The notes under the pieces: generated by a model
What the model was told of the DNA's origin: nothing
Seen by the model: only the letters and a program-made list of their open reading frames with translations
Database searches by the model: none
IMG/VR virus record: IMGVR_UViG_3300045988_047893
Reading direction: 5' to 3' (one strand)
Source: a virus
Length of the DNA stretch: 52,768 nt
Program-made: the position numbers and the translations under genes
Shown here: piece after piece, positions 1 to 52,768 of the stretch
How positions within the stretch are numbered: the first letter of the stretch is position 1
Layout: each line of letters starts with the position of its first letter

Positions 1-55
1 TATGGGGCGGGGCCGCTTTGTTTGAGCGGTGCGACCCTGCCAGGGCATCCGCTTG
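1..55. repeat. Terminal overlap, identical to 52714-52768 (circular assembly junction)
   Basis: Read directly: TATGGGGCGGGGCCGCTTTGTTTGAGCGGTGCGACCCTGCCAGGGCATCCGCTTG at both ends of the window. Confidence 0.95.
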
Positions 56-22142: not shown

Positions 22143-22902
22143 ACTCCACGAAGTCGGCCTAGTCGAAGGGCTACCGCCTGATGTTGCCAAAGAGCCATGG
22201 GTACAGATCCTTGATGCAGTTTTCAGGGAGCGGCGCAAGAAGGAACTGGAAGCTGCCGAACGCTTGAAAATCTACACGGATATTGACCGTGCAGATGAGG
22301 CGGTTCTGGATATTCTTGCGGTTCAGTTCCGCGTTGACTGGTACGACACCAGCTATCCGATTGAAACAAAGCGCAGGATCATCAAAACTGCGCTGGAAGT
22401 CCGTCGGTACTGCGGAACGGAGTGGGCAGTCCAAAAGGCGCTGTCCTCGATTTATCCGAATGTGAAGATAAGTGAATGGTATGACTACGGAGGAAGGCCG
22501 GGCTACTGGCGAATGAACGTAGACATTACCGATGATGGTGTCATTTACTACACACCGGAAGAAATTGAAAAGCGCCTTGGTTATGCCCGGCGCTGTACCG
22601 CTCACCTTGAGCACATCATCTACATCGTCGAACCGCATGAACGGTCGCCCGCTTATATCGCCGCCGCACCCTGCGGCATGGCGACATCCTGCACCGTAAA
22701 GGTCCCCGGTAGGATCAAGCCGCGGGAAATCGGCGCAAAGGCGTATGTTGCCGGTGCGGTCGGAAGATCGAAAATGCAGGTTGCCGTGGCGCTGCCCGGT
22801 GCCGTTGAAGCAAAGGCAGTGAAAGCACGAGCCTTTACGGCGGGCACCGTTGAACGGTCGCACACGGCGATAAACATTGTTATTGGAGGACAGACAACGT
22901 GA
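22135..22902 (+). CDS. Tail protein I (baseplate)
   Basis: AVLDILAVQFRVDWYDTSYPIETKRRIIKTALEVRRYCGTEWAV matches the P2 gpI pattern. Confidence 0.75.
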   Translation: MIELHEVGLVEGLPPDVAKEPWVQILDAVFRERRKKELEAAERLKIYTDIDRADEAVLDILAVQFRVDWYDTSYPIETKRRIIKTALEVRRYCGTEWAVQKALSSIYPNVKISEWYDYGGRPGYWRMNVDITDDGVIYYTPEEIEKRLGYARRCTAHLEHIIYIVEPHERSPAYIAAAPCGMATSCTVKVPGRIKPREIGAKAYVAGAVGRSKMQVAVALPGAVEAKAVKARAFTAGTVERSHTAINIVIGGQTT

Positions 22903-24023
22903 GTTGGGAAAAATCTAGCTACACCGCCGCCGGTGCCGCCCTGCTGTCGGAATCTCTCTCCGGTGGTGCGCTGGTAATCACCCGCGCTGTGAGCGGCACC
23001 GGTACGGCTGACGCAGACCTTTCGGGGGAAACCGGGGTAAGCGGCGAAACACATGACCTGAAATTGCTGGACATCGAAACCGTTGAAAGCGGCGGTGAGA
23101 CGGCTCGGCGGGTAAAAATCCAGATCACCGGTGCGGATGAAACGTACATCATGCATCAGGTGGGCGTTTACGGCAGGCTGAACGACGATGCCGAAACACT
23201 CCTGTTTATTATGCAGGATGCACGCGGAGTGGAGGTCCCGTCCACGAAAGTGAACGGCGATTTTGAGATTGAGCTGTCGGCGCTGCTTGCTGTGTCGAAC
23301 AAGGCCAATATCAGCATTACCGTTGACCCGCAGATGCAGGCTCTCGCAAAGATGGTCAAGGCCGAGATCGAGAAGCACAACGCCGCCGCTGATGCCCATG
23401 CAGCGACCATCACGGCAGCGGTCAGCGCAGCCGTGAAGAACCTGTCTGAATCCGGGGAAATCCTGAACGAAGAACAGGTAAAGGCTCTTATCAAGGAACA
23501 GGTGGACGGCGGAACAGGCGGCTACTATGGCTCCTACGAACTCACCCTTGCGGCTGACGGGTGGAAGCCCGCCCGCAGCGAGGATGATTACAAAAACGCT
23601 GGCGGTATGGATTACTACCAGTGCATTTATGACGCAGAACTGTCGGACAGCACCAGCGAGCTTGTACCAGTTGGCGTTGTATCTCCTGGCAGCTTCTATA
23701 CTACGACCAAAGCGGGCGTCCTGAACGGGTGCGAAACGCATGATGGTTTCATCAGATTTTTCGCTCAGCGCATCCCGGAAGCAGATATTCAGGCGACCGT
23801 AACCCTGTTCGGGAAAGGAGGTGGTTCGGGTGAAAACGGTAGCGTAAGCATCGGTCGGGGCTTGAAGCGCGACGCAAGCGGCGCTATTGCCGTCCGCATC
23901 GGCGAAGGCCTTGACTTCGACAGCGCAAACGCGCTGACTGTCCGCAAAGAAACCGTTATGACGAGTGAAGGCCTGCTCGACGAGGAAGAAACGCAGCAGG
24001 AAATCGTTGATATGCTGAAATAA
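22899..24023 (+). CDS. Tail fibre protein (tail-collar N-terminus)
   Basis: GTG start. YTAAGAALLSESLSGGALVITRAVSGTG..HQVGVYGRLNDD resembles the P2 gpH-type N-terminal domain. Confidence 0.65.
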   Translation: MSWEKSSYTAAGAALLSESLSGGALVITRAVSGTGTADADLSGETGVSGETHDLKLLDIETVESGGETARRVKIQITGADETYIMHQVGVYGRLNDDAETLLFIMQDARGVEVPSTKVNGDFEIELSALLAVSNKANISITVDPQMQALAKMVKAEIEKHNAAADAHAATITAAVSAAVKNLSESGEILNEEQVKALIKEQVDGGTGGYYGSYELTLAADGWKPARSEDDYKNAGGMDYYQCIYDAELSDSTSELVPVGVVSPGSFYTTTKAGVLNGCETHDGFIRFFAQRIPEADIQATVTLFGKGGGSGENGSVSIGRGLKRDASGAIAVRIGEGLDFDSANALTVRKETVMTSEGLLDEEETQQEIVDMLK

Positions 24024-25408: not shown

Positions 25409-25775
25409 CGCAGGCCCCGGCAAGGCGCCGGATGAAGATGTTGTCCGCACTAACCAGATCGGCGTGCCGGGCGGCATTGCCACGCTGGATGCTGACGGCC
25501 ATTTGACCGAATCGCAGCGTCCGGCGGTGGACGCATACACCAAGGCTGAAACCGACCAGCGCATCAGCGCGGCCGTTGACAACCACAACGGTGCGGAGAA
25601 CACCCACAGCGACATCCGTGCCAGTGTGGCAGCTATGAACGCCAGCATCAAGGCCATTGAGCTGAAGTTCGGCACAAACGTGACGAAAAATCCTTTTTCC
25701 GCCACGTTCAGCAGCCTTGACGGCCTGACCGTCACCGGCGTGTGGAACGCAGAACAGGCGAGGGTGGAGTTCTGA
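25389..25775 (+). CDS. Fibre-like protein
   Basis: GVPGGIATLDADGHLTESQRP is a motif common in phage fibre proteins. Confidence 0.5.
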   Translation: MAYGSFNAGPGKAPDEDVVRTNQIGVPGGIATLDADGHLTESQRPAVDAYTKAETDQRISAAVDNHNGAENTHSDIRASVAAMNASIKAIELKFGTNVTKNPFSATFSSLDGLTVTGVWNAEQARVEF

Positions 25776-26350
25776 TGGCTGAAACATTCAAGGTCGGCGC
25801 GAATGCGCGGGAGCTGCTGCGGTACACCCAGAGGGCAACCCGCATTGTCACCGACGACATCAGCCGGAGCGATGCCCGGAAGATCATCCAGAAAGTCGCG
25901 GCGCTCGAAGATGTGCGCGACATCCAGAAGGTGTGCGGCACTGCCGTCCATGCACTCGACACACGGGACAGGGAGGGCTTTTCCAAAAGCACTTTCCGTC
26001 TGTACGGTGAGGGCATCCGGCTGACTGCCCGGCAAATCCTGCTGGATGCACATGCGGCGAACAACGTCAATTTCCAGACCGACTACGACAAGCGCGTTGA
26101 GAAGATCGGCGCGGTCGTGGACGGCTGCTCTCTGCTGCTGGAATACCTGACCATCTGCACGGAGGAAGGTATCATCAGTGCGAAGAAAGCCGGTATCTGG
26201 ACAAAGAAGGTCACGGACGTAAAATACCCGGCGATGAAGTGGCTCACGTCGGAACGCGGACGTGCCGAAAAACTCCGGGCAGAAGCGGAACGGAAACGGC
26301 TGACCGAACAGGCTGCCGCCCTGAAAGCCGTCCTTTACCCGGAACCGTAA
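25775..26350 (+). CDS. avd: DGR accessory variability determinant (Avd-like four-helix bundle)
   Basis: ATGA-coupled start at 25775. Basic helical protein (ARELLRYTQRATRIV.., RLYGEGIRLTARQILLDAHAAN.., LLEYLTICTEEGIISAKK). Lies immediately upstream of the TR and RT. Confidence 0.55.
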   Translation: MAETFKVGANARELLRYTQRATRIVTDDISRSDARKIIQKVAALEDVRDIQKVCGTAVHALDTRDREGFSKSTFRLYGEGIRLTARQILLDAHAANNVNFQTDYDKRVEKIGAVVDGCSLLLEYLTICTEEGIISAKKAGIWTKKVTDVKYPAMKWLTSERGRAEKLRAEAERKRLTEQAAALKAVLYPEP

Positions 26351-26410
26351 ACGCACAGCGGGCAACCGCTTTGCATAAAGGGTGCGGTTTGTTTGTCTGA
26401 CGCTGCCATT

Positions 26411-26520
26411 TGGTGGCTGCGCTCTCCGAACACCAACAATAACAACAACGTCTGGAACGTCAACACCGATGGCTCCAACAACAACAACTGGTACTACAAC
26501 TCCTATGGTGTTCGCCCCGC
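26411..26520 (+). repeat. DGR template repeat (TR)
   Basis: 110 nt. Read in the VR frame it has 12 AAC/AAT codons. It aligns to 28441-28550 and 39811-39909, with differences almost only at TR adenines. Confidence 0.85.
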
Positions 26521-26691: not shown

Positions 26692-27922
26692 TTGACATAC
26701 GAAGAACTGTGCAGCTTTGAGGTACTTTACAAAGCCTACCTTGAAGCCCGGAAGGGAAAGCGCAGTAAAAGCAAAACAATCGAGTACGAGGCGCAGGCGC
26801 TGGCCTGCACGGAAAAGCTCTCCCGTAAGCTGGCTGTCTGCAATGTGCGGCAGCCAGACGGGAGCATTCGGCAGCAGATACGCTATGTGCCAAGTAAGTT
26901 TGAGGTCTTTGCCGTCTACGAGCCGAAGCGCCGCATGGTACACGCCCCCGCATTTGTGGACAAGGTGGTGCTGCACGCTCTGGTCGATAACATCCTGTAT
27001 GATGCCCTGACAAAGAGCTTTATCCGGGACAGCCACGCCAGCCAGACCGGAAAAAGGCACAGACGACGGCCTGATGCGCCTGAAAACCCACATGGTGGAC
27101 TATTACCGCCGTGAGGGCCACGGCGCGGACGGCTGGGTGCTGAAAGGCGACGTGCGGCATTTCTTCGCCAGCATCGACCACCGGAAGTTAAAACGCAAGC
27201 TCAAGGCCGTGCTGGACAAGCGCGGCGTTGACCCGCGTGTCTATGAGCTGCTTTGCATCTACATCGACGTGATGGAGGACGGCTTGCCGCTGGGCTACCA
27301 GACGAGCCAGCTCTTTGCGCTGATGTTTTTGGATGAGTTCGACCACATCATCAAAGAAAAGTACCGCATCAAATACTATGGCCGATACATGGATGATTTC
27401 TATATCATCTGTTCGGACAAGAAGAAATTGCAGTGCATTCTCCGGGATGTTCGGGCGCTCATGGACAGTTACGGCCTTGAGCTGAACCAGAAAACCGCCA
27501 TCTTCCCGCTGCGGAACGGTATTGATTTTCTGGGATTCCATAGCTACCTGAACAACACCGGCGCGGTCATCCAAAAGCTGCGCCGGGATAGCTCCAAGCG
27601 GATGAAGAACAAAATCAGATATTGGGAGACGGCATACCCCGCAGGCGAAGTGACCAAGCAGGAAATCCTGCGGAGCTTTGATGCGTGGGATGCCCATGCC
27701 GCCCATGGTGATACTTACTCTTTACGCCGCAAGTACGCTGACCGGCTCGAAAAATTGCTTGACTGTAAAATCCCTATCCATCGAAAAATCAACTCGAACA
27801 AACTCGCGCGTGACAGACGACGGGCGAGGCAATGCCGCTGCATCTACAAGAAGCAGCACAAAGCCCTGTCCCTCTCTGTATCGCAGAACACGCGGCCTGC
27901 GGAGATCATGCCGTGGGTCTGA
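26692..27922 (+). CDS. DGR reverse transcriptase, with the reading frame broken at an A5 run
   Basis: ORF 26692-27114 (TTG start, GGAGGG RBS) and ORF 27074-27922 are joined if A5 (27051-27055) is read as A4: ..DSHASQTGKGTDDGLMRLK... LPLGYQTSQ (IGxxxSQ-type) and RYMDDFYII (YxDD) motifs. Confidence 0.8.
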
Positions 27923-27942: not shown

Positions 27943-29202
27943 ATGGCAAACGTAAAACTGGGCACAAAATCCGTTGGCAGCATTGTCAAAATCAAGGTCA
28001 ACGGCGCGTCCAAAGATTTTATTGTCGTGCAGCAGGGCAACCCGAATACCGGCACCTATGATTCGAGTTGCGCCGGAACGTGGCTGCTGATGAAGGACAT
28101 CTACACAACGTCCACGTTCGGCAACAATAACTCCTACAAGGATTCCAGCATCCACACATACCTGAACGGAACATTCTACAACCTCATCGACAGCAACATC
28201 CGGGCGGCTATTAAGCAGGTGAAAATCCCGTACCAGAACGGCACTGGTTCCGGCGGCAGCCTTGCCACCGGCTCCAACGGCCTGAGCACCAAAGTGTTCC
28301 TGCTGTCTGGTTATGAGGTTGGTTGGACGACCAGCGACAACGGCTATTTCCCAAAGGATGGTGTTCGGCTGGCGTACTTTGGCAACAGCTCTGGCGGCAA
28401 CAGCAAGCGTGTCGCCTACAACGGCAGCTCCGCTGCCCGTTGGTGGCTGCGCTCTCCGTACACCAGCGATGGCAGCGTCGTCTGGCGCGTCTTCACCGAT
28501 GGCTCCAACGGCAACGGCTGGTACGGCAACTCCTATGGTGTTCGCCCCGCTTTCATTCTTCCCTCTACACTCGTGGTCTCTGACGATGGCACGGTCAGTG
28601 TCAACACTGCACCTACCGTCAGCACGGACGGCGCAGCTCTGGGGCAGAAGAACGCGGCCTTTGCGTGGAAGTACACCGTCAGGGATGCCGACGGCGACAC
28701 CTTGACCGTCACCGAAAAGCTGGACGGAAAGACCGCCAAGACCCGCACCGGCGTTGCCAGCGGCACGGCCCTGACTTTTGAGCAGACGGCCAGCGCTGCC
28801 GGATTCCAGAAAATCCTGAACGGCAACCACACCATCACCGTTGAGGTGAGCGACGGCAAGGAAACCGTCAGCACGTCCGCGACCTTTACCAAGGCCGTCC
28901 ACGCCGCAAGCGTGACGCTGGCTGAACCGTTGGCCGTTGAGGGCGACATTACCGTTGCCGTGCTTCAGGTGACCGGCTCCATCCCCGATGATGCGAAGTT
29001 CAAAGCCGAAGTGACCAACAACGCCAAGGACGCGGCCCCGGTGTGGCAGGATGTCACCACCGAGGTGCGGAAAGGCGTGAACATCGTCTTTGAGAACAAG
29101 ACCGCCACGGCGGGCGCGGCATTCAATTTCCGCGTCAGCGTCAGCCGCGGTGCATCCGGCGATGGCGGCTACATCGAAGCCGTCTCCGGCGCATTCCAGT
29201 AA
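27943..29202 (+). CDS. DGR target protein 1 (VR-containing ligand-binding domain plus C-terminal beta-rich region)
   Basis: ATG 27943 after AAGGAGG. WWLRSPYTSDGSVVWRVFTDGSNGNGWYGNSYGVRPAF is encoded by VR1. The C-terminal half looks like Ig-type repeats. Confidence 0.75.
   Translation: MANVKLGTKSVGSIVKIKVNGASKDFIVVQQGNPNTGTYDSSCAGTWLLMKDIYTTSTFGNNNSYKDSSIHTYLNGTFYNLIDSNIRAAIKQVKIPYQNGTGSGGSLATGSNGLSTKVFLLSGYEVGWTTSDNGYFPKDGVRLAYFGNSSGGNSKRVAYNGSSAARWWLRSPYTSDGSVVWRVFTDGSNGNGWYGNSYGVRPAFILPSTLVVSDDGTVSVNTAPTVSTDGAALGQKNAAFAWKYTVRDADGDTLTVTEKLDGKTAKTRTGVASGTALTFEQTASAAGFQKILNGNHTITVEVSDGKETVSTSATFTKAVHAASVTLAEPLAVEGDITVAVLQVTGSIPDDAKFKAEVTNNAKDAAPVWQDVTTEVRKGVNIVFENKTATAGAAFNFRVSVSRGASGDGGYIEAVSGAFQ
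28441..28550 (+). repeat. DGR variable repeat 1 (VR1)
   Basis: 18 differences from the TR: 17 at TR adenines and one T-to-G (TR tac, VR1 ggc). Confidence 0.85.
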
Positions 29203-31059: not shown

Positions 31060-32118
31060 GTGCGAGTGTTCAAACAGCTTACGCTTACAGACCGAATCCG
31101 TATTGAAAAGTGGTTGAAAGATGGGCTGAGAGTAAAGGAAATCGCAGACAGGTTGCGGGTTGACCCGTCCACGGTGTACCGGGAACTGAAACGCGGCAGC
31201 TACGACAAGTTGGACGGTAAGACGTGGAAGCTGATTCCTACATATAGCCCGGATATTGCAGAACAAAGGTATCAGGCACATCTTCGGGAGAAGGGACCAA
31301 ACATTAAGATTGGCAAGGATCATGAGCTTGCAAGCTATATCGAGCAGACCATTATAGATAAGGATTGTTCACCGGCTGCTGTGTACGGTTATGCCCTGGA
31401 AGAAGGACGGACATTCAAAACGCATATATCGGTGCCTACCATATACAGCTACATCAAAAAGGGCGTGTTCCTGAACTTGACGCAAAAGGCTCTGCCCAGA
31501 CATGGAGTGCATAAGGGCGACTATAAAAAGGTGAAAACAAAGGATCCTGCTCGTGCGCCTGCCGGTGAGAGCATCGAAAAACGCCCGGCGGAAGTAAAAG
31601 ACCGTGAAGAATTTGGACACTGGGAAATGGACACGGTGTATTCTGGCAAGAAGAAAAGCACGGTTGCGCTGCTGGTGCTGACTGAGCGCAAGACCCGGAA
31701 CGAAAATATTATAGTGGTGCCAGATCGCCGCGCAGAGACGACCGTGCGGGCAATCAATGCACTGGAACGGAAGTTAGGTGCAGAGAAGTTTGGCATTATC
31801 TATAAGAGCATCACAGTGGACAACGGCAGTGAGTTTGCATTGGCCGACCAGCTGGAACAGTCCTGCATCACCGGAGATAAGCGGACGAAGGTGTACTATT
31901 GTCATCCGTATTCTTCTTGGGAACGCGGGAGCAATGAGAATGTGAACGGCATGATTCGCCGCAGGCACCCGAAAGGCACAGACTTCTCAAAGGTCACGGC
32001 AGAGGAAATCGCGGCTACGGAGAACTGGATCAACAGCTATCCCAGAAAAATTTTCGGCTATAAGAGCGCCGGCACAATGTTCCGCGAATGCCTACGGGAG
32101 CTTGGTCTGACAGCATAA
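31060..32118 (+). CDS. IS30-family DDE transposase
   Basis: 352 aa. N-terminal HTH RIRIEKWLKDGLRVKEIADRLRVDPSTVYRELKRG. HWEMDTV.. and ITVDNGSEF.. DDE core. YYCHPYSSWERGSNENVNGMIRR is typical of IS30. Confidence 0.9.
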   Translation: MRVFKQLTLTDRIRIEKWLKDGLRVKEIADRLRVDPSTVYRELKRGSYDKLDGKTWKLIPTYSPDIAEQRYQAHLREKGPNIKIGKDHELASYIEQTIIDKDCSPAAVYGYALEEGRTFKTHISVPTIYSYIKKGVFLNLTQKALPRHGVHKGDYKKVKTKDPARAPAGESIEKRPAEVKDREEFGHWEMDTVYSGKKKSTVALLVLTERKTRNENIIVVPDRRAETTVRAINALERKLGAEKFGIIYKSITVDNGSEFALADQLEQSCITGDKRTKVYYCHPYSSWERGSNENVNGMIRRRHPKGTDFSKVTAEEIAATENWINSYPRKIFGYKSAGTMFRECLRELGLTA

Positions 32119-32293: not shown

Positions 32294-32336
32294 AACGCAA
32301 GAGAAATCTTAGCGGATTCTCTTGCGTTATTTTTTT
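32294..32336 (+). terminator. Strong intrinsic terminator
   Basis: 12-bp perfect stem AACGCAAGAGAA / TTCTCTTGCGTT followed by ATTTTTTT. The 5' arm is the second unit of a tandem AACGCAAGAGAAA repeat. Confidence 0.8.
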
Positions 32337-32367
32337 GCGCATTTTTCAGGAAAGCGAGGGAACAGGA

Positions 32368-32616
32368 ATGGCAAAACACATGACGCAGGATGACCGCAAG
32401 GTGCTGGAAGCCCGGTACAATGCCGGACAGAGTGTTGCCGGAATCGCCAGGGCGATGAGCTTCAACTATTCCACCATCTATAAGGAACTGAAGCGCGGTG
32501 ACACTGGAAAGATGGATGCCAATGGTCGCGCAGGATATAGTGCAGAGCTTGGGCAGCAGCGATTATACAACGCAAAGCAGCGGTTCAGGTATCGGGCGGA
32601 TTGCCCGGCGGAGTAA
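32368..32616 (+). CDS. Stand-alone HTH protein homologous to the IS30 transposase N-terminus
   Basis: DRKVLEARYNAGQSVAGIARAMSFNYSTIYKELKRG aligns with residues 11-46 of the 31060 transposase. No DDE domain. Confidence 0.6.
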   Translation: MAKHMTQDDRKVLEARYNAGQSVAGIARAMSFNYSTIYKELKRGDTGKMDANGRAGYSAELGQQRLYNAKQRFRYRADCPAE

Positions 32617-38207: not shown

Positions 38208-38236
38208 AGGCCGCCCGCTGCGGCGGCCTTTTTTGT
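38208..38236 (+). terminator. Intrinsic terminator
   Basis: AGGCCGCC pairs with GGCGGCCT, followed by TTTTTTG. Confidence 0.75.
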
Positions 38237-38303: not shown

Positions 38304-38492
38304 ATGCAGAGGTACTACATTTTGCTGAAAGCGACCGGTGCTGGTGGGTGGCCGGGTTGGCTGCCGTACCGGCTGGATGCGGACAGCGCCGAACAGGCTG
38401 TTGAAAAAGCCAAGGAGCAGGCCGAGAATCATTACCCGGAGTACGAAAAGTTTGAAGTTCAGGCTATCGAAATTGAAAGGAGAAGCAAATGA
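38304..38492 (+). CDS. Hypothetical protein
   Basis: 62 aa with a GGAGAA RBS. Confidence 0.45.
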   Translation: MQRYYILLKATGAGGWPGWLPYRLDADSAEQAVEKAKEQAENHYPEYEKFEVQAIEIERRSK

Positions 38493-39118
38493 AGCTGGCA
38501 GCAATCGCAAAGCTCATTAAGGCAGATGGGTACTGTAAACTCTACAAAGTGTTCTATGACGATTGCAGAACCTATGATTTGTACATTGGAACCAAAACGG
38601 CAATCTTCCCGCTGACCGGATTTCCGAAGGCACAAAATGAAAGTGAGTTGGCAACCCTCCTGGGCATCAGCAAAAAGGAATGGGCAGACATCGAGTTTGA
38701 TAATGACTGCCCGGATGATCTCCATCACATCGAAGGGATGGATTTGGACGACACGGCAGACGGAGAAATGGACTGCGTGACCGGAAGAATCGGTATCCGG
38801 TACTGCGGGTGTGAACTGGTTCCAATGATCGAGCCCGTTTCGGGAACGGTCGGTTTTGTGGATGCGAAGCAGATCATGCCAGTAGCAGATGAAATCCGCA
38901 AGAGCGGATATTTCAAATACTGCGCCAGGAAGATGGCGAGCGGCGGACGCTACTATGTTATCAAGGACGGAATGGTGGTGCGCGGCGCGGTGCTTCCTGT
39001 AAAGCTGGAACCTCTGGCAAAGTCTGGACTGCGTGAGCTTGCCGACATGGTGAAAAAGACTAGGGATGTTGCCGATGTGGAGGACTTGAGCGAACAGGAG
39101 GACAAAAACGATGCGTAA
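38489..39118 (+). CDS. Hypothetical protein
   Basis: 209 aa, coupled to its neighbours. No family recognised. Confidence 0.5.
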   Translation: MKLAAIAKLIKADGYCKLYKVFYDDCRTYDLYIGTKTAIFPLTGFPKAQNESELATLLGISKKEWADIEFDNDCPDDLHHIEGMDLDDTADGEMDCVTGRIGIRYCGCELVPMIEPVSGTVGFVDAKQIMPVADEIRKSGYFKYCARKMASGGRYYVIKDGMVVRGAVLPVKLEPLAKSGLRELADMVKKTRDVADVEDLSEQEDKNDA

Positions 39119-39380
39119 GGCTGTGAAACTGCTGGCTTTGACCACCTTGACTGCTGCACTGTGCGCTACACTGACCGGGTGCGAAGCTGTCAAGGATGCA
39201 ACAATCGGCGAAAATCCGGTCAAGACGGTATATGTTTATCTGCCGGATGGCACTTTGCTGGACAAAGGAAGGGCAGACAAGGTAAGTTCATTTGTACACA
39301 ATGATCGTATCGTGAAAGTCACGATTGACGGGAAAACATACGAAACCAGCTGGGCCAATGTGGTTTTAGTGGAGGAATAA
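39111..39380 (+). CDS. Lipoprotein (paralog of 40837-41079)
   Basis: Signal peptide with lipobox LTGC. The C-terminus PDGTLLDKGRADK..VKVTIDGKTYETSWANVVL aligns with the 40837 protein. Confidence 0.65.
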   Translation: MRKAVKLLALTTLTAALCATLTGCEAVKDATIGENPVKTVYVYLPDGTLLDKGRADKVSSFVHNDRIVKVTIDGKTYETSWANVVLVEE

Positions 39381-39382
39381 CG

Positions 39383-40030
39383 ATGAGTAAGATTTTGAAA
39401 AGCGTAACTCTGGGCGACGTGAAAATTGGCGGCATCTTCAGGGCGCTGGGCAAGGAGTTTGTGAAGCTGGATGCAGACGAACACGGCTGTCTGGTACTGG
39501 CAAAGGACATTTGGACGAGAATGCCGTTCCGCGACGGCGACGACCCGGAATACCCCAACGATCTGCGCCGGAGCGAGATTATGCCATATCTGGGTAACTG
39601 CCTGGCAGAGTTTACAAAGAACGGCACTCCGCTGAGTACATTCATTCCGCTCAGAATCGACCTTCAGGACACGACCGGCCAGAACGAATACGGAATCTTT
39701 GAAGTGAGGATTGGCCTGTTGACCCTGCGCGGGTACGGAAAATATTGGCGGCTGATCCCGAAGGTAGATGCGCCGTGGTGGTTGGCAACGCCTTACGGTA
39801 CGCCGAATTGCTCTCCGCGCACCAGCGATAACAACAACGTCTGGCGCGTCCACACCGATGGCTCCGGCAGCCACTACTGGTACTACTACTCCTATGGTGT
39901 TCGCCCCGTTTTGTGCTTTTCCTCTGCACTCTTGGTCTCTGTCGAGGACGAAAGAGAGGCCGGGTTTTCGCTTTCCGATGTTCCGCTGGATGACCTGCTG
40001 GCCGAAATCAAGAGCCGGACGGAGGGCTAA
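39383..40030 (+). CDS. DGR target protein 2 (remote, non-structural context)
   Basis: 215 aa with no signal peptide. VR2 encodes ..SPRTSDNNNVWRVHTDGSGSHYWYYYSYGVRPV. The N-terminal region resembles target 1 (VKIGGIF.., WWLATP). Confidence 0.75.
   Translation: MSKILKSVTLGDVKIGGIFRALGKEFVKLDADEHGCLVLAKDIWTRMPFRDGDDPEYPNDLRRSEIMPYLGNCLAEFTKNGTPLSTFIPLRIDLQDTTGQNEYGIFEVRIGLLTLRGYGKYWRLIPKVDAPWWLATPYGTPNCSPRTSDNNNVWRVHTDGSGSHYWYYYSYGVRPVLCFSSALLVSVEDEREAGFSLSDVPLDDLLAEIKSRTEG
39811..39909 (+). repeat. DGR variable repeat 2 (VR2)
   Basis: Aligns to TR 26422-26520. The first 98 positions have 13 differences, all at TR adenines. The last position (39909 t, TR c) marks the end of homology. Confidence 0.85.
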
Positions 40031-40032
40031 TC

Positions 40033-40377
40033 ATGGATGCGGTAAAAAATGACGTGAAGCGGCTGGTCAAAATTGAGCTGGCCGCTGCAAACAAGAAGTT
40101 TCGGATGTTTGCAGGGCCGCATGAGGGCGCGGGAATCATCCAAGAAGAAGTCGTGGAAGCTGCGCGGGAGATGAACGGTCTGCGCCGGGAACTTAACGCT
40201 ATGTGGATAGGTGTTTACTCCAACAATCCGCAGATCTCCACGAAAGGCGTATACGACCGGGCTGTTGCCCTGGCCGTGGAAGCTATTCAGACAGCAGCGA
40301 TGGCCCGGAAGTTTGAGCGCAGCCAGCGCCGTCACTGGCCGGGGGCAAAGGATCCGCACTATGGTGAAGAAGAATGA
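40033..40377 (+). CDS. Hypothetical protein
   Basis: 114-aa helical protein. Confidence 0.45.
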   Translation: MDAVKNDVKRLVKIELAAANKKFRMFAGPHEGAGIIQEEVVEAAREMNGLRRELNAMWIGVYSNNPQISTKGVYDRAVALAVEAIQTAAMARKFERSQRRHWPGAKDPHYGEEE

Positions 40378-40840
40378 CGCACCTACCGAAATCGAGACCA
40401 TCACGCTGACCATGAGCCGCCCGGTGGCCGAGGCTGTGCAAGCGGCCTGCGAGTGGTACTTGCGCTTACATATGGGCCAGTTCTGGGATGTAGCCGATGA
40501 TCTGTGCATGGCAAAGTTCTATTCCGATGCCAAACATAATGAGTTCAAGACAAAGGAACAGCGGGACAACGCTTTCACGGTTTCAATCCACCGCCGGAAC
40601 GATATGCAGGATGGACTGGATAACCTATATCGCCGGTACGTTCTCCCTGCCCCAATCTCCGACCTGATGGAGATTCCGTACCGGGCAGAACAGGTATGGC
40701 TTGTCATTCGCCACGCCTTGGCATGGCATGACAAGCCGGAGGGCGATCCATGGAATGTGTGCTTTGATAAGCCGCTGAACCGCAGCGACCAGCCGCAGCC
40801 GGTAGTAAAACTCAATGAAAAGCAGGAGGCAAAGAAATGA
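40361..40840 (+). CDS. Hypothetical protein
   Basis: ATG 40361 inside ORF 40211-40840. 159 aa. Confidence 0.45.
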   Translation: MVKKNDAPTEIETITLTMSRPVAEAVQAACEWYLRLHMGQFWDVADDLCMAKFYSDAKHNEFKTKEQRDNAFTVSIHRRNDMQDGLDNLYRRYVLPAPISDLMEIPYRAEQVWLVIRHALAWHDKPEGDPWNVCFDKPLNRSDQPQPVVKLNEKQEAKK

Positions 40841-41079
40841 GAAAGATTTTTATGGTGGGAGCATCTGCGGTGGCAAGCGTTTTGCTGATGACGGGATGCA
40901 ACAAGCAGGTAATTGATTTGACCTACGAATATTCGCAGGCACAGATTAAAATGCCGGATGGAACCGTAATTGAGGGCAAGGTGGATAGCTGGAACGATTA
41001 TGAAGGCGACCAGTTACAGGTCAAAATTAACGGAACAACATATCTGGCCCATTCGTCAAACGTGGTCCTCTGGCACTGA
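40837..41079 (+). CDS. Lipoprotein (paralog of 39111-39380)
   Basis: Signal peptide with lipobox MTGC. PDGTVIEGKVDS..VKINGTTYLAHSSNVVL. Confidence 0.65.
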   Translation: MRKIFMVGASAVASVLLMTGCNKQVIDLTYEYSQAQIKMPDGTVIEGKVDSWNDYEGDQLQVKINGTTYLAHSSNVVLWH

Positions 41080-45350: not shown

Positions 45351-45563
45351 TGGAATCTCGATGGTTTCATTCATACGTTTCGGAAATCGTCCACGGTGAT
45401 TCTTTCGCAAATGCTGCTGCACGATGTAGCCAAGTGATTCCATAGACAATTTTTCCGAGGATATAACACGAAGCGCGGAATCTTTGCTGGCTTGAACGGT
45501 ATATTCAATTTTACCTCCAGCAAGATTTTTAGTACTTATTCTAACCTGCTGTCTGTTCTGCAT
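45330..45563 (-). CDS. Hypothetical protein in an AT-rich island
   Basis: ATG 45563 after GAAAGGA. Local GC is clearly lower than in the flanks. Convergent with the 45114 gene. Confidence 0.4.
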   Translation of the reverse strand: MQNRQQVRISTKNLAGGKIEYTVQASKDSALRVISSEKLSMESLGYIVQQHLRKNHRGRFPKRMNETIEIPSFRFIE

Positions 45564-45584: not shown

Positions 45585-45618
45585 AAGCCCGTCAGGTCAT
45601 CGACCTGGCGGGCTTTTT
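45585..45618. terminator. 14-bp hairpin between the leftward operon end and the AT-rich gene
   Basis: AAGCCCGTCAGGTC pairs with GACCTGGCGGGCTT (one G.T on the + strand), followed by TTT on the + strand. The T-tract orientation favours + strand termination. Confidence 0.45.
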
Positions 45619-47023: not shown

Positions 47024-47126
47024 AACGGGAAACCTCCTTTTCGTGTTTCGTTACGGTCATGATAGAACAAAACGCAAACAAAAGCAATAAAAGGCAAGAA
47101 GATTTCGTGCAGAGGCACCAGAATGA

Positions 47127-47194
47127 CCCCGGCGGGCTACCGGGAAGATGGGGCGGGGCTGCTTTACGGTGCCTGCCCTGCCAGAACTTCCGGG
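47127..47194. repeat. Intergenic two-hairpin repeat R1 (degenerate)
   Basis: CCCGG..CCGGG, then GGGGCGGGGCTGC-TTTACGGT-GCCTGCCCTGCC. Confidence 0.6.
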
Positions 47195-47588: not shown

Positions 47589-47616
47589 GAAAATACCTCC
47601 TTTCTGTTTCGTGATG

Positions 47617-47693
47617 TTCCCGACGTAAATGCCGGGAAGATGGGGCGGGGTTGCTTTGTCCGGTGCAGCCCTGCCAAAATATCCGGTTTCGTG
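47617..47693. repeat. Intergenic two-hairpin repeat R2
   Basis: TTCCCG..CGGGAA, then GGGGCGGGGTTGC-TTTGTCCGGT-GCAGCCCTGCC-AAAATATCCGG-TTTCGTG. It abuts the stop codon of the 47694 gene. Confidence 0.8.
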
Positions 47694-49319
47694 TTAAGCG
47701 TTCAGCTGTAAAAACGTGCTCTGCGTGGGGATCAGGTGCCGGGTGAGGGTGTCGGTGTAGCTGGCCTCCCCCTCGTAGCTGTCAACCACCCGGCGGTCTG
47801 CGGCGGCCATATCGTGATAGCTCTTTTTGCCGTAGGTGGGCGGCAGCCAGCCTTTGCGCTGTCCGGCGTAGAGGTTGAAGGACTTCAAAACGTCCGTGTT
47901 CGTAAACTCGATGTGGCAGGTGCCTTTCTTGTAAAACGTGGCGGTGAAATAGTGCAGCTGGATCTTCTGGGTCTGGCCGCTCTTTTCGGCGGCATCCAGG
48001 ACGGCGCGGAGTTCGTCCCCATTGTAGGGCTTGCCGTTCGTGTCCAGGAAGTGCAGCACCCGCTCGATCTGGGCAACATGGCCTGTTGCGTTGTACCGGG
48101 GGCAGAAACGCCCATCGTATGTATCAAAGGCGTTGCAGCGGAAAATCACCTTGCGGTTGATCTTGTACGCGGAGTTCGTGCACCAGCCGTTGTAATAATG
48201 CACGTTCTTGCTGTACTCGTCGTTATAATGCAGGTTCGTCCAGTCGTCGAACAGCTTTATAATTTCGTGGTCGATGCTGGAAAGAAGATTTCGTGAAATT
48301 TCTTCCCGGACGGTCAGAATGTTGTACGCGCTGAAGTCGTAGCCTTCAAGCTCTTTGATTCGCTTCTGGTAATCCTGCTGCATTTCGTAGGTCATCGCAT
48401 CGAACAGCTGCGGCATTTCAAACAGCTGTTTCCAGTACATCCCGCGCAGTTCCCGGATAGCGTCGTTATAAGATTTCGTGAAAGCCATCACGGGGTTTTC
48501 TTTCTTACCAGCGCCGGCAGAGGAAAACAACGACTTGATTCCGTTGTACTCTTCATAGATCCGGCGCACACCCTCAGCCGCGGCGTTATACCGTTCAATG
48601 GCTGCCGTGATGGGGTCGGAAGATACCAGGGCGGCAAACTCCGGGTTTTCTTTCAAACGCTCTGCGGTTTCGTTTTTCAGATCCAGCCGGATCCGGCTCA
48701 CCGGCTCCCGGTCGGGAATGTCCACCGACACAAGCGCCACCTCCACGCGGGCGGCGCGGCGGGCGTTCTTGAACGCATCCGGGATATATTTTACCGTGGC
48801 GTGCAGCTCTTCCAGCTTTGCGGCCAGCTCTTTCCGTTCGTTGGTGCAGGGGTTGCGCAGGGTTTCGGCGTTGAGCAGACAGCGGATTTTGCCGCCGTCC
48901 TGCATGACATCCAGCGCTTTGAGCAGGTGCGCGGCACCGGCGGAGAAAGGCGGATTCATGACGATTGCGGCGTATTTCGTGGTGGGGCGGAAGGTCAGAA
49001 AGTTATCATGCACCACCCGGAAACCGTCTTTCTTCAGCTTTGCGCGGAAGTCGCTGGAAAGTTCGATGCAGTCAAGCTCTGCGCTTCGTGCCTTTCCCTT
49101 GTCGTATTGGTCAACCTCGCCGGTCTTATAGTCGTGGTGGACGTTGAACGCCAGGGCATGGACCTGACGCGCAAGCGCTCCATCACCGGCGGACGGTTCA
49201 AGAATGGGTTTCGGGTAGGTGGTGAACCCGGATTTTACTTCCCGCAGGGAAAAGACCATATCAAAGGCCAGGCTGTCCGGCGTGGGGTAGAAGTCCAGGG
49301 CATCGTTGGGGGTGGTCAT
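47694..49319 (-). CDS. N6-adenine DNA methyltransferase with a DUF4942-like C-terminal domain
   Basis: ILEPSAGDGAL (motif I) and AAIVMNPPFS (NPPF motif IV). 541 aa. From memory, this architecture occurs in orphan MTases of mobile elements. Confidence 0.75.
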   Translation of the reverse strand: MTTPNDALDFYPTPDSLAFDMVFSLREVKSGFTTYPKPILEPSAGDGALARQVHALAFNVHHDYKTGEVDQYDKGKARSAELDCIELSSDFRAKLKKDGFRVVHDNFLTFRPTTKYAAIVMNPPFSAGAAHLLKALDVMQDGGKIRCLLNAETLRNPCTNERKELAAKLEELHATVKYIPDAFKNARRAARVEVALVSVDIPDREPVSRIRLDLKNETAERLKENPEFAALVSSDPITAAIERYNAAAEGVRRIYEEYNGIKSLFSSAGAGKKENPVMAFTKSYNDAIRELRGMYWKQLFEMPQLFDAMTYEMQQDYQKRIKELEGYDFSAYNILTVREEISRNLLSSIDHEIIKLFDDWTNLHYNDEYSKNVHYYNGWCTNSAYKINRKVIFRCNAFDTYDGRFCPRYNATGHVAQIERVLHFLDTNGKPYNGDELRAVLDAAEKSGQTQKIQLHYFTATFYKKGTCHIEFTNTDVLKSFNLYAGQRKGWLPPTYGKKSYHDMAAADRRVVDSYEGEASYTDTLTRHLIPTQSTFLQLNA

Positions 49320-49350: not shown

Positions 49351-49424
49351 GCCCGGCGGAATGCTGGGCGGTGGGGCGGGGCCGCTTTGTCCGGTGCGGC
49401 CCTGCCAGGGCATCCGGTTTCGTG
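49351..49424. repeat. Intergenic two-hairpin repeat R3
   Basis: GCCCGGC..GCTGGGC, then GGGGCGGGGCCGC-TTTGTCCGGT-GCGGCCCTGCC-AGGGCATCCGG-TTTCGTG. It abuts the stop codon at 49425. Confidence 0.8.
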
Positions 49425-50215: not shown

Positions 50216-50255
50216 ATTGCAAAAACTCCTTTTCGTTTTCGTTCTGTTTTTCGTG

Positions 50256-50329
50256 CCCGGTGCGCTGCCGGGGTAGTGGGGCGGGGTTGCTTTGCCCGGT
50301 GCAGCCCTGCCAAAATATCCGGTTTCGTG
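50256..50329. repeat. Intergenic two-hairpin repeat R4
   Basis: CCCGG..CCGGG, then GGGGCGGGGTTGC-TTTGCCCGGT-GCAGCCCTGCC-AAAATATCCGG-TTTCGTG. Confidence 0.8.
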
Positions 50330-51189: not shown

Positions 51190-51234
51190 GGTTCGTTCTC
51201 CTTTGTTCGTTGTGGTTGATGTTCGGGATGATCT

Positions 51235-51298
51235 CCCGGCGGCTGCCGGGGTAGTGGGGCGGGGCTGCTTTGCGGTGCAACCCTGCTAGAGTGTCCGG
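51235..51298. repeat. Intergenic two-hairpin repeat R5
   Basis: CCCGGC-GGCT-GCCGGG, then GGGGCGGGGCTGC-TTTGCGGT-GCAACCCTGC. Confidence 0.75.
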
Positions 51299-51973: not shown

Positions 51974-52016
51974 GGGGTGTGCTCCTTTGTTCGTGGGTTG
52001 ATGTTCGGGATGATCT

Positions 52017-52082
52017 CCCGGCGGCTGCCGGGGTAGTGGGGCGGGGCCGCTTTGTCCGGTGCGGCTCTGCCAGGGCATCCGG
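52017..52082. repeat. Intergenic two-hairpin repeat R6
   Basis: CCCGGC-GGCT-GCCGGG, then GGGGCGGGGCCGC-TTTGTCCGGT-GCGGCTCTGCC-AGGGCATCCGG. Confidence 0.8.
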
Positions 52083-52089
52083 TGGGCAT

Positions 52090-52664: not shown

Positions 52665-52693
52665 GTTCTTTGCTCCTTTGCTTTTCAGGTTTG

Positions 52694-52768
52694 CCCCGGC
52701 GGGCTGCCGGGGTTATGGGGCGGGGCCGCTTTGTTTGAGCGGTGCGACCCTGCCAGGGCATCCGCTTG
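52694..52768. repeat. Intergenic two-hairpin repeat R7 (continues across the junction; same bases as 1-55)
   Basis: CCCCGGC-GGGCT-GCCGGGG, then GGGGCGGGGCCGC-TTTGTTTGAGCGGT-GCGACCCTGCC-AGGGCATCCGC. Confidence 0.8.
52714..52768. repeat. Terminal overlap, identical to 1-55
   Basis: Exact 55-nt identity with the window start. Confidence 0.95.

What the first reader, a model, noticed from the sequence alone, without database searches (positions are those of the whole stretch)
39383..40030. Second DGR target 13 kb from the TR, in a non-structural gene
VR2 (39811-39909) aligns to TR 26422-26520. The first 98 aligned positions have 13 differences, all at TR adenines. The final position (39909 t versus TR c) marks the end of homology. 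VR2 also differs from VR1, so both loci appear to have been diversified independently from one TR.

The host gene encodes 215 aa with no signal peptide. It lies among small accessory genes, not in the virion module. It is bracketed, at +3 nt and about +0.8 kb, by two paralogous lipoprotein genes.

Phage DGR targets are classically receptor-binding tail proteins. A cytoplasmic or otherwise non-virion target in the same phage would suggest diversification of something other than adsorption. Examples are recognition of a host or competitor factor, or superinfection control.
Basis: partly seen in the sequence, partly recalled or inferred. Interest (0 to 1): 0.65.

Follow-up and report, generated by a model that had tools for sequence, protein, structure and literature searches.

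The report
Known second DGR target, early operon
A gut Faecalibacterium phage uses one mutagenic retroelement to rewrite the binding surface of two proteins, one of them a small protein encoded 13 kb away among early and replication genes; this is real and active, but it has already been described for this phage group, and what the small protein binds is still unknown.

Summary
VR2 (39811-39908) matches TR 26422-26519 with 13 differences, all at TR adenines (P = 6.5e-8 for random placement).

VR2 is not a relic:
- In 67 related viral contigs the 32 TR-adenine sites average 1.36 bits of entropy. Non-A VR sites average 0.16 and the rest of the gene 0.21.
- VR2 follows its own TR at 12 of 12 non-adenine differences in genomes with a divergent TR.

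The host gene encodes a 215-aa single-domain DUF6273 (C-type-lectin-like) protein plus a C-terminal helix. It is a paralog of the adjacent "tentaclin" target that carries VR1. The gene lies in the early/replication operon of a Toutatis/Lelie-like Faecalibacterium phage.

This architecture is already published for Toutatisvirus, phage Lelie and phages nd4/nd12.

New here:
- Population proof of VR2 activity in this lineage.
- A second, unreported VR in FP_Brigit gp06.
- The small target sits in non-structural modules in five lineages.
- A shared 3′ element beside VR1 and VR2.

The flanking lipoprotein genes are optional, not partners. Whether the protein is non-virion remains plausible but untested.

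In this copy the RT is frameshifted.

The parts
25742..26350 (+). Avd-like accessory protein of the DGR (202 aa)
   Evidence: phrog_3206 'Avd protein of DGR', E 2e-36. No Pfam hit.
26422..26519 (+). Template repeat (TR) core shared with VR2. Homology to VR1 starts about 13 nt earlier, near 26409.
   Evidence: 32 adenines, all in codon positions 1 and 2. In the 13 nt immediately 5′ of the core, the TR matches VR1 at 12 of 13 but VR2 at only 4 of 13. Position 26495 is T here but A in relatives' TRs.
26692..27922 (+). DGR reverse transcriptase, split into two ORFs (26692-27114 and 27074-27922) by one extra A in the run at 27051-27055
   Evidence: RVT_1, E 1.6e-16. The window reads GACCGGAAAAAGGCA (15 nt) where 73 of 73 relatives have 14 nt. 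Relatives' ORF is about 429 codons against 303 here.
27943..29202 (+). Large DGR target ('tentaclin': N-terminal DUF6273 domain plus Ig-like domains) carrying VR1 at 28452-28549
   Evidence: DUF6273 E 1e-36 and Big_9 weak. phrog_10993 'Hoc-like', E 1e-140. 17 A mismatches plus one T>G at the site where relatives' TR has A.
39383..40030 (+). Small DGR target gene (215 aa): a single DUF6273/C-lec-like domain, a linker and a C-terminal helix
   Evidence: phrog_9958, E 2e-70. 30% identity to the tentaclin domain, E 8e-14. AF2 pLDDT 94.8. pN/pS 0.21 outside the VR.
39811..39908 (+). VR2, the variable repeat (codons 143-176)
   Evidence: 13 of 13 mismatches at TR adenines. Hypervariable at the 32 A sites in 67 relatives. 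pN/pS about 4 and no stop codons. Follows its own TR at 12 of 12 non-A differences.
39921..39944 (+). 24-nt element 3′ of VR2, shared with the 3′ flank of VR1 (28562-28585) but absent from the TR. Candidate target-recognition (IMH-like) sequence; it also encodes a conserved beta-strand.
   Evidence: VR1-VR2 identity 21 of 24, against about 8 of 24 for the TR. Third-codon entropy is 0.13 in 39909-39950 against about 0.40 elsewhere in the gene. The same VR1/VR2 flank similarity is seen in Brigit and nd4.
39111..39380 (+). Optional upstream lipoprotein gene (89 aa, lipobox LTGC)
   Evidence: Present in 39 of 55 related loci and absent in Toutatis. Paralog of 40837-41079.
40837..41079 (+). Optional downstream lipoprotein gene (80 aa, lipobox MTGC)
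   Evidence: Present in 25 of 55 related loci.
38489..39118 (+). Conserved upstream neighbour of unknown function (209 aa)
   Evidence: phrog_24518, E 3e-38. Present in 55 of 55 loci.
40033..40840 (+). Conserved downstream neighbours: a 114-aa protein of unknown function (40033-40377) and a transcriptional regulator (about 40361-40840)
   Evidence: phrog_25385 and phrog_36225. Both present in 55 of 55 loci.
38208..38229 (+). Strong terminator-like hairpin preceding the gene block that holds the target. The next strong one is at 45585-45615, after the replication genes.
   Evidence: consensus scan only.

Best explanation
ORF 39383-40030 is a genuine second target of this phage's diversity-generating retroelement, acted on in trans and active in the population.

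How it works:
- The TR (26422-26519) is transcribed.
- The RT, with the Avd-like protein, makes cDNA in which adenines are copied at random. This step is inferred from established DGR biology.
- The cDNA replaces VR2, 13.4 kb away, just as it replaces VR1 in the adjacent tentaclin gene.
- Targeting of the remote copy probably relies on the GC-rich VR end plus a roughly 24-nt 3′ element shared by VR1 and VR2 but absent from the TR (inferred).

The product is a 215-aa single-domain DUF6273 (C-type-lectin-like) protein. It is a paralog of the tentaclin head domain. Its VR-encoded beta-hairpin and loops form a variable, Tyr/Asn/Ser/Gly-rich binding surface on a conserved scaffold, followed by a linker and a strictly conserved C-terminal helix that probably docks onto a partner.

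The gene belongs to the early/replication operon and the protein has no export signal. My functional call, at about 45% probability, is a soluble variable binding protein made in the infected cell with early genes. It would act inside the cell or after release at lysis, rather than as a canonical tail-module receptor-binding protein. The ligand is unknown.
For: Shown by tool results:
- A-only TR/VR2 mismatches in this genome (P 6.5e-8) and in 7 other genomes carrying both elements: 11/11, 19/19, 13/13, 17/17, 21/22, 12/12 and 10/11.
- Entropy of 1.36 bits at the 32 TR-A sites, against 0.16 at non-A VR sites and 0.21 in the rest of the gene. 63 of 67 VR2 sequences are distinct. One relative is 99.8% identical outside the VR and 81.6% inside.
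- VR2 copies its own TR at 12 of 12 non-A differences in genomes with a divergent TR type.
- pN/pS is 0.21 outside the VR and about 4 inside, with no stop codons.
- Avd, RT and TR are present.
- The protein is a paralog of the tentaclin.
- The AF2 model has pLDDT 94.8, with one globular domain plus a C-terminal helix.
- Structural matches are the DUF6273 N-terminal domain of the T. ramosa IgA peptidase (9qa6, E 6e-6) and DUF6273 phage proteins.
- The early/replication context holds here and in Toutatis, L164, Brigit, nd4 and nd12.
- Brigit gp06 and nd4 tgt2 are also A-specific remote VRs.
- nd12 tgt2 is fused to DUF3310. That domain is found in SaV, an early lactococcal phage protein (PMC8306868).
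- A 3′ element is shared by VR1 and VR2, with low synonymous variation.
Against: - The RT in this copy is frameshifted. This particular genome may be unable to diversify at present, or the assembly has a homopolymer error.
- No significant hairpin follows VR1 or VR2, unlike the BPP-1 paradigm.
- The 24-nt element also encodes a conserved beta-strand, so DNA-level constraint is not proven (14 synonymous sites only).
- The Pfam DUF6273 score (22.9) is just below the curated cut-off of 23.5.
- For the non-virion sub-claim there are no expression or proteomic data.
- Structural neighbours include DUF6273 domains inside proteins labelled tail or RBP.
- In phages Roos and Pioen a near-identical DUF6273 target occurs with and without a tail-fibre-like N-terminal domain (PMC11792537).
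- Published authors favour a receptor-binding role.
Confidence: 0.85

Rival explanations
1. The small target is a virion-associated second receptor-binding or adhesion module. It would dock non-covalently through its conserved C-terminal helix onto the tail, baseplate, tentaclin or capsid. Its diversification would serve adsorption to bacteria or mucus, as the published papers suppose.
For: - It is a paralog of the tentaclin C-lec domain.
- BFVD structural neighbours include DUF6273 domains in proteins named tail endopeptidase, receptor binding protein and tail-collar fibre.
- The C-terminal helix, residues 200-215, is strictly conserved.
- The Roos/Pioen pair shows that a single-domain DUF6273 protein can be the sole DGR target, and that the same domain can be fused to a tail-fibre-like domain (PMC11792537).
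- Authors propose RBP roles (bioRxiv 10.1101/2024.10.15.618418; PMC10743442).
Against: - The gene is encoded in the early/replication operon, upstream of the late-activator-like regulator, in five lineages.
- It has no Mtd-like beta-prism or beta-sandwich attachment domains.
- The nd12 ortholog is fused to DUF3310, a domain typical of early phage proteins.
- It is a core gene even in Toutatisviruses that lack the DGR (bioRxiv 10.1101/2024.10.15.618418).
Confidence: 0.4
2. The small target works together with the flanking lipoproteins at the cell envelope of the lysogen or infected cell, for example in superinfection exclusion or receptor masking.
For: - The upstream lipoprotein gene ends 3 nt before the target's start codon, and a paralog lies 0.8 kb downstream.
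- Lipoprotein-based superinfection exclusion is well known in phages (general knowledge: T5 Llp, TP-J34 Ltp).
Against: - The lipoprotein genes are optional: present in 39 of 55 and 25 of 55 related loci, and absent in Toutatis, Brigit and nd4.
- The target has no signal peptide or lipobox.
- VR1 and VR2 are not correlated within genomes (0.474 against 0.443, P 0.23, n = 7, low power), so nothing suggests a ligand shared with the tentaclin. Baykov et al. report the same for nd4/nd12 (PMC10743442).
Confidence: 0.07
3. VR2 is a relic: an old duplication of the VR1 region that once received cDNA but is no longer diversified.
For: The RT of this genome copy is frameshifted, so this individual genome may be frozen.
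Against: - 63 of 67 related contigs carry distinct VR2 sequences, varying at all 32 A sites.
- VR2 tracks its own TR at non-A sites.
- VR2 is mutated as heavily as VR1.
- 73 of 73 relatives have the intact RT reading frame.
Confidence: 0.02

Closest known systems
Second VR gene of Toutatisvirus: FP_Toutatis gp24 (YP_009797461) and the 'small DGR target' of phage Lelie
   Same: - It is the orthologous gene: 80-81% amino-acid identity, 215 aa, DUF6273, with the VR at the C-terminal end of the domain.
- It is remote from the TR (17,480 nt in Toutatis).
- It is a core gene of unknown function, paired with a tentaclin/'Hoc-like' first target next to the RT (bioRxiv 10.1101/2024.10.15.618418; PMC11792537).
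- The operon context is the same.
   Different: - This genome is a divergent relative. Only the lysis module matches Toutatis/Lelie at or above 85% nucleotide identity within 30-47 kb.
- Two optional lipoprotein genes are inserted around the target.
- An IS30-like transposase sits where Toutatis has its serine integrase.
- The RT is frameshifted.
- For Lelie, no variation at the VRs could be shown. Here, population variation is shown for this lineage.
tgt2 proteins of gut phages nd4 and nd12 (Baykov et al. 2023, PMC10743442)
   Same: - A single DUF6273/C-lec globular domain flanked by short helices.
- The VR lies at the 3′ end and forms a beta-hairpin.
- VR2 is shorter than VR1.
- It is the second target alongside a tentaclin, diversified from one TR.
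- nd4 tgt2 is 29.5% identical, lies 11.7 kb from its TR in the replication module, and has A-only mismatches.
   Different: - Only about 25-30% identity, in a different phage genus.
- nd12 tgt2 carries an extra N-terminal DUF3310 domain.
Mtd of Bordetella phage BPP-1 (the DGR paradigm)
   Same: A C-type-lectin-type scaffold displays a C-terminal VR written from a TR by adenine mutagenesis, with AAY codons avoiding stop codons.
   Different: - Mtd is a 381-aa trimer with N-terminal beta-prism and beta-sandwich domains that attach to tail fibres.
- It is encoded in the cassette next to avd-TR-brt, with a GC-rich IMH plus hairpin.
- The protein here has none of the attachment domains and gives no Mtd hit in Foldseek. 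It shows no significant hairpin and is encoded 13 kb away in the early operon.
Roseburia phage Shimadzu VR2 in orf43/44 (bioRxiv 10.1101/575076)
   Same: A temperate gut Firmicutes phage with one TR and two VRs. One VR is in a tail gene by the RT and one is in a remote gene of unknown function. Both were shown experimentally to be rewritten.
   Different: It is a Lagaffe-like phage with Mtd/FGE-type targets. Homology of orf43/44 to the protein here was not tested.
Multi-target and remote-target cellular DGRs (for example Treponema denticola, Legionella, Stenotrophomonas)
   Same: One TR/RT serves several paralogous C-lec targets, some of them distant (stated in PMC10743442, and general knowledge).
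   Different: Those targets are mostly exported lipoproteins or surface proteins of cells. Here the target lacks any export signal and is a phage early-region gene.

Membership tests
DGR variable repeat / target gene | A VR homologous to a TR, with mismatches essentially only at TR adenines | tested here: met
   13 of 13 in the window. A-only or nearly so in 7 other genomes.
DGR variable repeat / target gene | A cognate reverse transcriptase and accessory protein (Avd) adjacent to the TR in the same genome | tested here: met
   RVT_1 E 1.6e-16. Avd phrog_3206 E 2e-36. The RT reading frame is broken here by +1 A but intact in 73 of 73 relatives.
DGR variable repeat / target gene | Ongoing unidirectional TR-to-VR transfer: population hypervariability at A sites and copying of non-A TR changes | tested here: met
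   (entropy 1.36 against 0.16). (12 of 12 non-A TR differences mirrored in VR2).
DGR variable repeat / target gene | TR adenines confined to codon positions 1 and 2 (AAY codons), so that stop codons are avoided | tested here: met
   17 in position 2, 15 in position 1 and none in position 3. No stops in 67 VR2 sequences.
DGR variable repeat / target gene | A 3′ target-recognition element (IMH) present at the VR but different at the TR, plus a downstream hairpin or cruciform as in BPP-1 | tested here: inconclusive
   A 24-nt flank is shared by VR1 and VR2 (21 of 24) and not by the TR, with low synonymous variation. No significant hairpin was found (z = -0.6 and -0.2). Function is not testable in silico.
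Pfam DUF6273 (PF19789) | Score at or above the curated gathering threshold (23.5 bits) | tested here: inconclusive
   The window protein scores 22.9 bits on the C-terminal part only. The Toutatis ortholog scores 24.8 and nd4 tgt2 38.7. Some 90% clusters are pre-annotated PF19789. The protein is 30% identical to the tentaclin DUF6273 domain, E 8e-14. The structural match is to the DUF6273 N-terminal domain of 9qa6 (PMC12402451).
tgt2-type small DGR targets (Baykov et al. 2023) | A single C-lec/DUF6273 globular domain flanked by short helices, with the VR at the 3′ end forming a beta-hairpin. It is the second target beside a tentaclin. | tested here: met
   The AF2 model has a domain at 5-188, hairpin strands at 152-156 and 162-166 within the VR, and a helix at 202-214. 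The tentaclin is present. Sequence similarity to nd4 tgt2 has E 7e-8.
Tentaclin (applies to the VR1 target, not to VR2) | [quoted passage not shown] | tested here: met
   For 27943-29202: DUF6273 at residues 45-208, E 1e-36, and Big_9 weak at 221-312. The small target lacks Ig domains, so it is not a tentaclin.
Mtd (BPP-1 major tropism determinant) | N-terminal beta-prism and beta-sandwich attachment domains plus a C-lec domain; a tail-fibre-bound trimer | tested here: not met
   The model has one domain only. There is no Mtd hit among the Foldseek PDB matches. Oligomeric state and virion attachment are not testable here.
Classical C-type lectin fold | Significant structural similarity to solved C-type lectin domains | tested here: inconclusive

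The most novel reading that the evidence does not exclude
Small DUF6273 proteins encoded in phage early/replication operons are intracellular, DGR-diversified, antibody-like binders. They would be made early in infection to recognise variable host or competitor factors, such as defence proteins, rather than to mediate adsorption. The class recurs here and in Toutatis, Brigit, nd4 and nd12. This would extend phage DGR function beyond the virion surface.
Probability: 0.2. Interest if true: 0.8.

Novelty: already known. Interest (0 to 1): 0.3.

Why it matters
Phage DGRs are usually explained as switching of tail-fibre tropism. A hypervariable binding protein that is core to an abundant Faecalibacterium phage lineage, yet encoded with early and replication genes, does not fit that picture. 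Finding its ligand could reveal a second use of targeted hypermutation in gut phages.

The feature itself is already in the literature. The value added here is threefold:
- firm population and concerted-evolution evidence that the remote VR is live;
- evidence that the lipoprotein neighbours are incidental;
- the observation that early-operon placement recurs across several phage lineages, including a previously unreported second target in FP_Brigit.

Tried and rejected
- **AF2 with 34 close homologs (87-96% identity):** unusable model, pLDDT 35. It was replaced by a 64-sequence diverse alignment.
- **Hairpin or cruciform 3′ of VR1, VR2 and the TR:** none better than shuffled sequence.
- **Pfam and NCBIfam scans of the conserved neighbours (38489, 40033) and the lipoproteins:** no informative hits.
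- **Domain fusions in 20 longer family members:** only DUF6273 itself, plus one DUF5983 C-terminal domain of unknown meaning.
- **Context look-ups for five divergent family members:** one informative, on a 105-kb contig (P0125). The others were short or unannotated contigs.
- **Pattern scan of viral contigs to collect more TR/VR1/VR2 triples:** The VR1-VR2 correlation test therefore has only n = 7 and low power.
- **First regex for the RT A-run:** failed and was redone with anchored fuzzy matching.
- **Promoter-like sites:** not enriched over shuffles, so promoter assignment was not attempted.
- **Literature search for virion proteomics of Toutatis/Lelie-type phages:** nothing found.
Full report
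**1. Observation**

The window holds three copies of a roughly 100-nt repeat, all on the + strand: 26422 (TR), 28452 (VR1) and 39811 (VR2).
- TR 26422-26519 against VR2 39811-39908 gives 13 mismatches in 98 positions. All fall on the TR's 32 adenines (A>G 7, A>C 4, A>T 2), and homology stops at 39909.
- If mismatches were placed at random, 13 of 13 on adenines has probability 6.5e-8.
- VR1 has 17 adenine mismatches plus one T>G at TR position 26495.
- VR1 and VR2 differ from each other at 18 positions. They share 8 mutated sites, as expected for independent diversification (7.1 expected).

**2. VR2 is live, not a relic**

The gene has 76 related loci in IMG/VR and more than 800 protein clusters at 90% identity. 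I aligned 67 full-length copies.
- The 32 TR-adenine positions average 1.36 bits of entropy, and all 32 show at least three bases.
- The 66 non-adenine VR positions average 0.16 bits, and the rest of the gene 0.21.
- 63 of 67 VR2 sequences are distinct.
- One relative is 99.8% identical outside the VR and 81.6% identical inside it.
- Outside the VR, pN/pS is 0.21 (purifying selection). Inside it is about 4, with no stop codon in any copy. Tyr, Asn, Ser, Gly and Asp dominate at the AAY codons.

In seven contigs that carry both the RT/TR locus and the VR2 locus, VR2 differs from its own TR at adenines only: 11/11, 19/19, 13/13, 17/17, 21/22, 12/12 and 10/11.

Three of these genomes have a TR type that differs from the common one at 15-16 sites. 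At the 12 sites where their own TR base is not A, VR2 carries the base of its own TR at 12 of 12. This concerted evolution shows directly that sequence flows from the TR to a repeat more than 13 kb away. VR2 is mutated as heavily as VR1.

**3. The cassette**

Gene order is tail fibre (22899-24023), Avd-like protein (25742-26350; phrog_3206, E 2e-36), TR, RT (26692-27922), large target (27943-29202), endolysin.
- The large target has an N-terminal DUF6273 domain (E 1e-36) followed by Ig-like sequence. This is the 'tentaclin' architecture of Baykov et al. (PMC10743442).
- The RT is split in this genome by one extra A in the run at 27051-27055. All 73 relatives examined have 14 nt where the window has 15, and their RT ORF is about 429 codons against 303 here. 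This copy may be unable to diversify at present, or the assembly has a homopolymer error.
- The TR has T at 26495, where relatives have A. That explains the single 'non-adenine' mismatch in VR1.

**4. The protein**

- It matches phrog_9958 (unknown function) end to end (E 2e-70). Pfam DUF6273 matches only at the C-terminal end, at 22.9 bits, just under the 23.5 cut-off.
- It is 30% identical to the tentaclin's DUF6273 domain over its whole length (E 8e-14), so the two are paralogs.
- An exhaustive search of 1.84 billion representatives finds 494 clusters at the 50% level, mostly proteins of 200-250 aa.
- With 64 of these as the alignment, AlphaFold2 gives pLDDT 94.8 and pTM 0.84. The model has one globular alpha/beta domain (residues 5-188), a lower-confidence linker and a C-terminal helix (202-214). 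That helix is invariant among close homologs.
- The VR (codons 143-176) covers a beta-hairpin (strands 152-156 and 162-166) and its adjoining loops and strands.
- The N-terminus is part of the fold, so there is no signal peptide.
- Foldseek finds one significant solved structure, the T. ramosa IgA peptidase 9qa6 (E 6e-6). Its N-terminal domain is annotated DUF6273 (PMC12402451). Classical C-type lectins match only weakly.
- Among predicted viral structures, the matches are DUF6273 proteins of uncultured gut phages. Some are embedded in long proteins labelled tail or receptor-binding.

**5. Genomic context**

After lysis come an IS30-like transposase, DNA methyltransferases, an HD phosphohydrolase and a 3D-domain protein, then a strong terminator-like hairpin (38208-38229). 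The block that follows contains:
- a 209-aa protein of unknown function;
- the first lipoprotein;
- the target;
- a 114-aa protein of unknown function;
- a transcriptional regulator;
- the second lipoprotein;
- the replication initiator (42108);
- a resolvase-like endonuclease;
- a regulator/activator (44118).

The block ends at a second strong terminator (45585-45615).

In FP_Toutatis the ortholog gp24 lies in the rightward operon that starts at the cro-like gene. That operon runs through the methyltransferases to the replication initiator and a gene annotated antiterminator Q.

Across 55 related loci with enough flank, the 209-aa gene, the 114-aa gene and the regulator are always present. 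The upstream lipoprotein is present in 39 and the downstream one in 25. Neither is found in the Toutatis-like subclade. The lipoproteins are therefore optional insertions, not obligate partners.

**6. The pattern is general**

The small target sits in a non-structural module in five lineages:
- **Toutatis/Lelie**.
- **A 56%-identical relative on a 105-kb contig**, with the same layout.
- **FP_Brigit.** gp06 is the third gene of the early operon, before the exonuclease and RecT genes.
- **nd4.** tgt2 lies 11.7 kb from the TR, before the DNA-polymerase-like, SSB and DnaC genes.
- **nd12.** tgt2 lies among small genes of unknown function, away from the virion genes.

Brigit gp06 contains a VR of about 75 nt that matches the Brigit TR roughly 41 kb away on the linear record, with 8 of 8 mismatches at adenines. 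nd4 tgt2 shows 9 of 9. The original description of Brigit mentions only the Hoc-like target (PMC5883640).

nd12 tgt2 carries an N-terminal DUF3310 domain (E 2.5e-16). That domain occurs in SaV, an early, host-toxic lactococcal phage protein (PMC8306868).

In all three phages with aligned triples, the 3′ flanks of VR1 and VR2 resemble each other and not the TR. In the window, nucleotides 13-36 after the VR are 21 of 24 identical between VR1 and VR2, against about 8 of 24 for the TR. Third-codon positions in 39909-39950 vary much less (0.13 bits) than elsewhere in the gene (about 0.40). This fits a cis-acting recognition element, but the stretch also encodes a conserved beta-strand. No significant hairpin follows either VR.

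**7. What is already published**

- Cornuault et al. 2018 found a DGR in Toutatis with a target of unknown function (PMC5883640).
- Baykov et al. 2023 described DGRs with two targets, a tentaclin and a small single-domain DUF6273 'tgt2' (PMC10743442).
- Egorov et al. 2024 analysed 173 Toutatisviruses. They reported a second VR in a gene of unknown function 17,480 nt from the TR. The gene is core (98.8%), carries DUF6273 and is C-lec-like by AF3. They suggested a receptor-binding role (bioRxiv 10.1101/2024.10.15.618418).
- Gulyaeva et al. 2024 reported two VRs, in 'large and small' DUF6273 targets, in phage Lelie. They could not show variation there (PMC11792537).
- In Roseburia phage Shimadzu, a tail-gene VR and a remote VR in a gene of unknown function are both rewritten experimentally (bioRxiv 10.1101/575076).

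The window's protein is 80-81% identical to the Toutatis and Lelie proteins. A 93%-identical copy sits in F. prausnitzii APC923/61-1. The finding is therefore a rediscovery of a described feature in a new relative.

**8. Mechanism and function**

Shown:
- VR2 receives TR-derived sequence with adenine-specific randomisation, independently of VR1.
- The scaffold is under purifying selection.
- The gene lies in a non-structural operon.

Inferred from DGR biology:
- TR RNA is reverse-transcribed by the RT-Avd complex.
- The cDNA homes to any locus carrying the VR 3′ end and its flank, which is why a remote paralog can be served.

The function is open, and I weigh it as follows.
- **Soluble, early-made variable binder, about 45%.** It would act in the infected cell or after lysis. 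Support comes from the recurrent early-operon position, the lack of any attachment domain and the DUF3310 fusion.
- **Virion-associated adhesin docking through its conserved C-terminal helix, about 40%.** Support comes from the paralogy to the tentaclin, the structural neighbours labelled tail or RBP, and the Roos/Pioen example in PMC11792537.
- **Lipoprotein-linked envelope role: unlikely.** The lipoprotein neighbours are optional.

VR1 and VR2 are no more similar within genomes than between genomes (0.474 against 0.443, P = 0.23, n = 7, low power). This gives no support to a shared ligand, in line with Baykov et al.

**9. Verdict**

Novelty is rated 'already known' and interest is modest. 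The residual interest is the unanswered question of what an early-operon, hypervariable lectin-fold protein does. Virion proteomics and expression timing would settle it quickly.

Noticed in passing
window 27051-27055 (RT gene 26692-27922): The DGR reverse transcriptase is split into two ORFs by one extra A in a homopolymer (A5 here). 73 of 73 related loci have one base fewer and an intact ORF of about 429 codons. This is either a real inactivating mutation in this genome or a homopolymer assembly error.
   Followed up: yes
window 26495 (TR), 28525 (VR1), 39884 (VR2): The TR has T where all related TRs examined have A. VR1 has G there, which explains its one 'non-adenine' mismatch. VR2 has T, matching the mutated TR. 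This hints that VR2 was rewritten after the TR mutation and VR1 was not, though T also arises by mutagenesis in about a third of relatives.
   Followed up: partly
L159 (NC_047909 FP_Brigit) 3948-4559, VR at about 4372-4445; TR at record 45410-45483: Brigit gp06 is a small homolog of the target and the third gene of the early operon. It carries a VR of about 75 nt with 8 of 8 mismatches at TR adenines. The original description of Brigit reports only the Hoc-like target.
   Followed up: partly
window 1-55 and 52714-52768: The two ends of the window are an identical 55-nt direct repeat. This fits a circular or terminally redundant complete phage genome assembly.
   Followed up: no
window 47108-47166, 47600-47693, 49361-49424, 50236-50329, 51214-51272, 51996-52089, 52675-52768 (and 1-55): A family of six to seven GC-rich repeats of about 55-65 nt contains GGGGCGGGGCYGCTTTG...GCAGCCCTGCC, an imperfect inverted repeat. 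The repeats are spaced between the minus-strand genes at the right end of the genome. They may be terminators or regulatory hairpins.
   Followed up: no
window 31060-32118 and 32335-32616: An IS30-like DDE transposase (phrog_4646, E 9e-124) and a related HTH fragment sit just after the lysis genes, where FP_Toutatis has its serine integrase and repressor. The same arrangement is seen in a 56%-identical relative (L164), and nd12 also has an IS30-family gene. No serine integrase was found among the ORFs scanned. The 541-aa minus-strand ORF 47694-49319 looks methyltransferase/DUF4942-like.
   Followed up: partly
L162 (OR777946 nd12) 5794-6687: The nd12 small DGR target is a fusion of an N-terminal DUF3310 domain (E 2.5e-16) with the DUF6273 domain. 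DUF3310 occurs in SaV, an early, host-toxic lactococcal phage protein.
   Followed up: partly
window 25742-26350: The Avd-like protein is long (202 aa from a GTG start; the likely start is the Met at residue 12). It is recognised only by PHROGs, not by Pfam or NCBIfam. That may explain why no Avd homolog was reported for Toutatis in 2018.
   Followed up: no
window 39111-39380 and 40837-41079: Two small paralogous lipoprotein genes (29% identity) are present or absent independently among close relatives (39 of 55 and 25 of 55). They behave like moron insertions in the early operon, and their function is unknown.
   Followed up: partly
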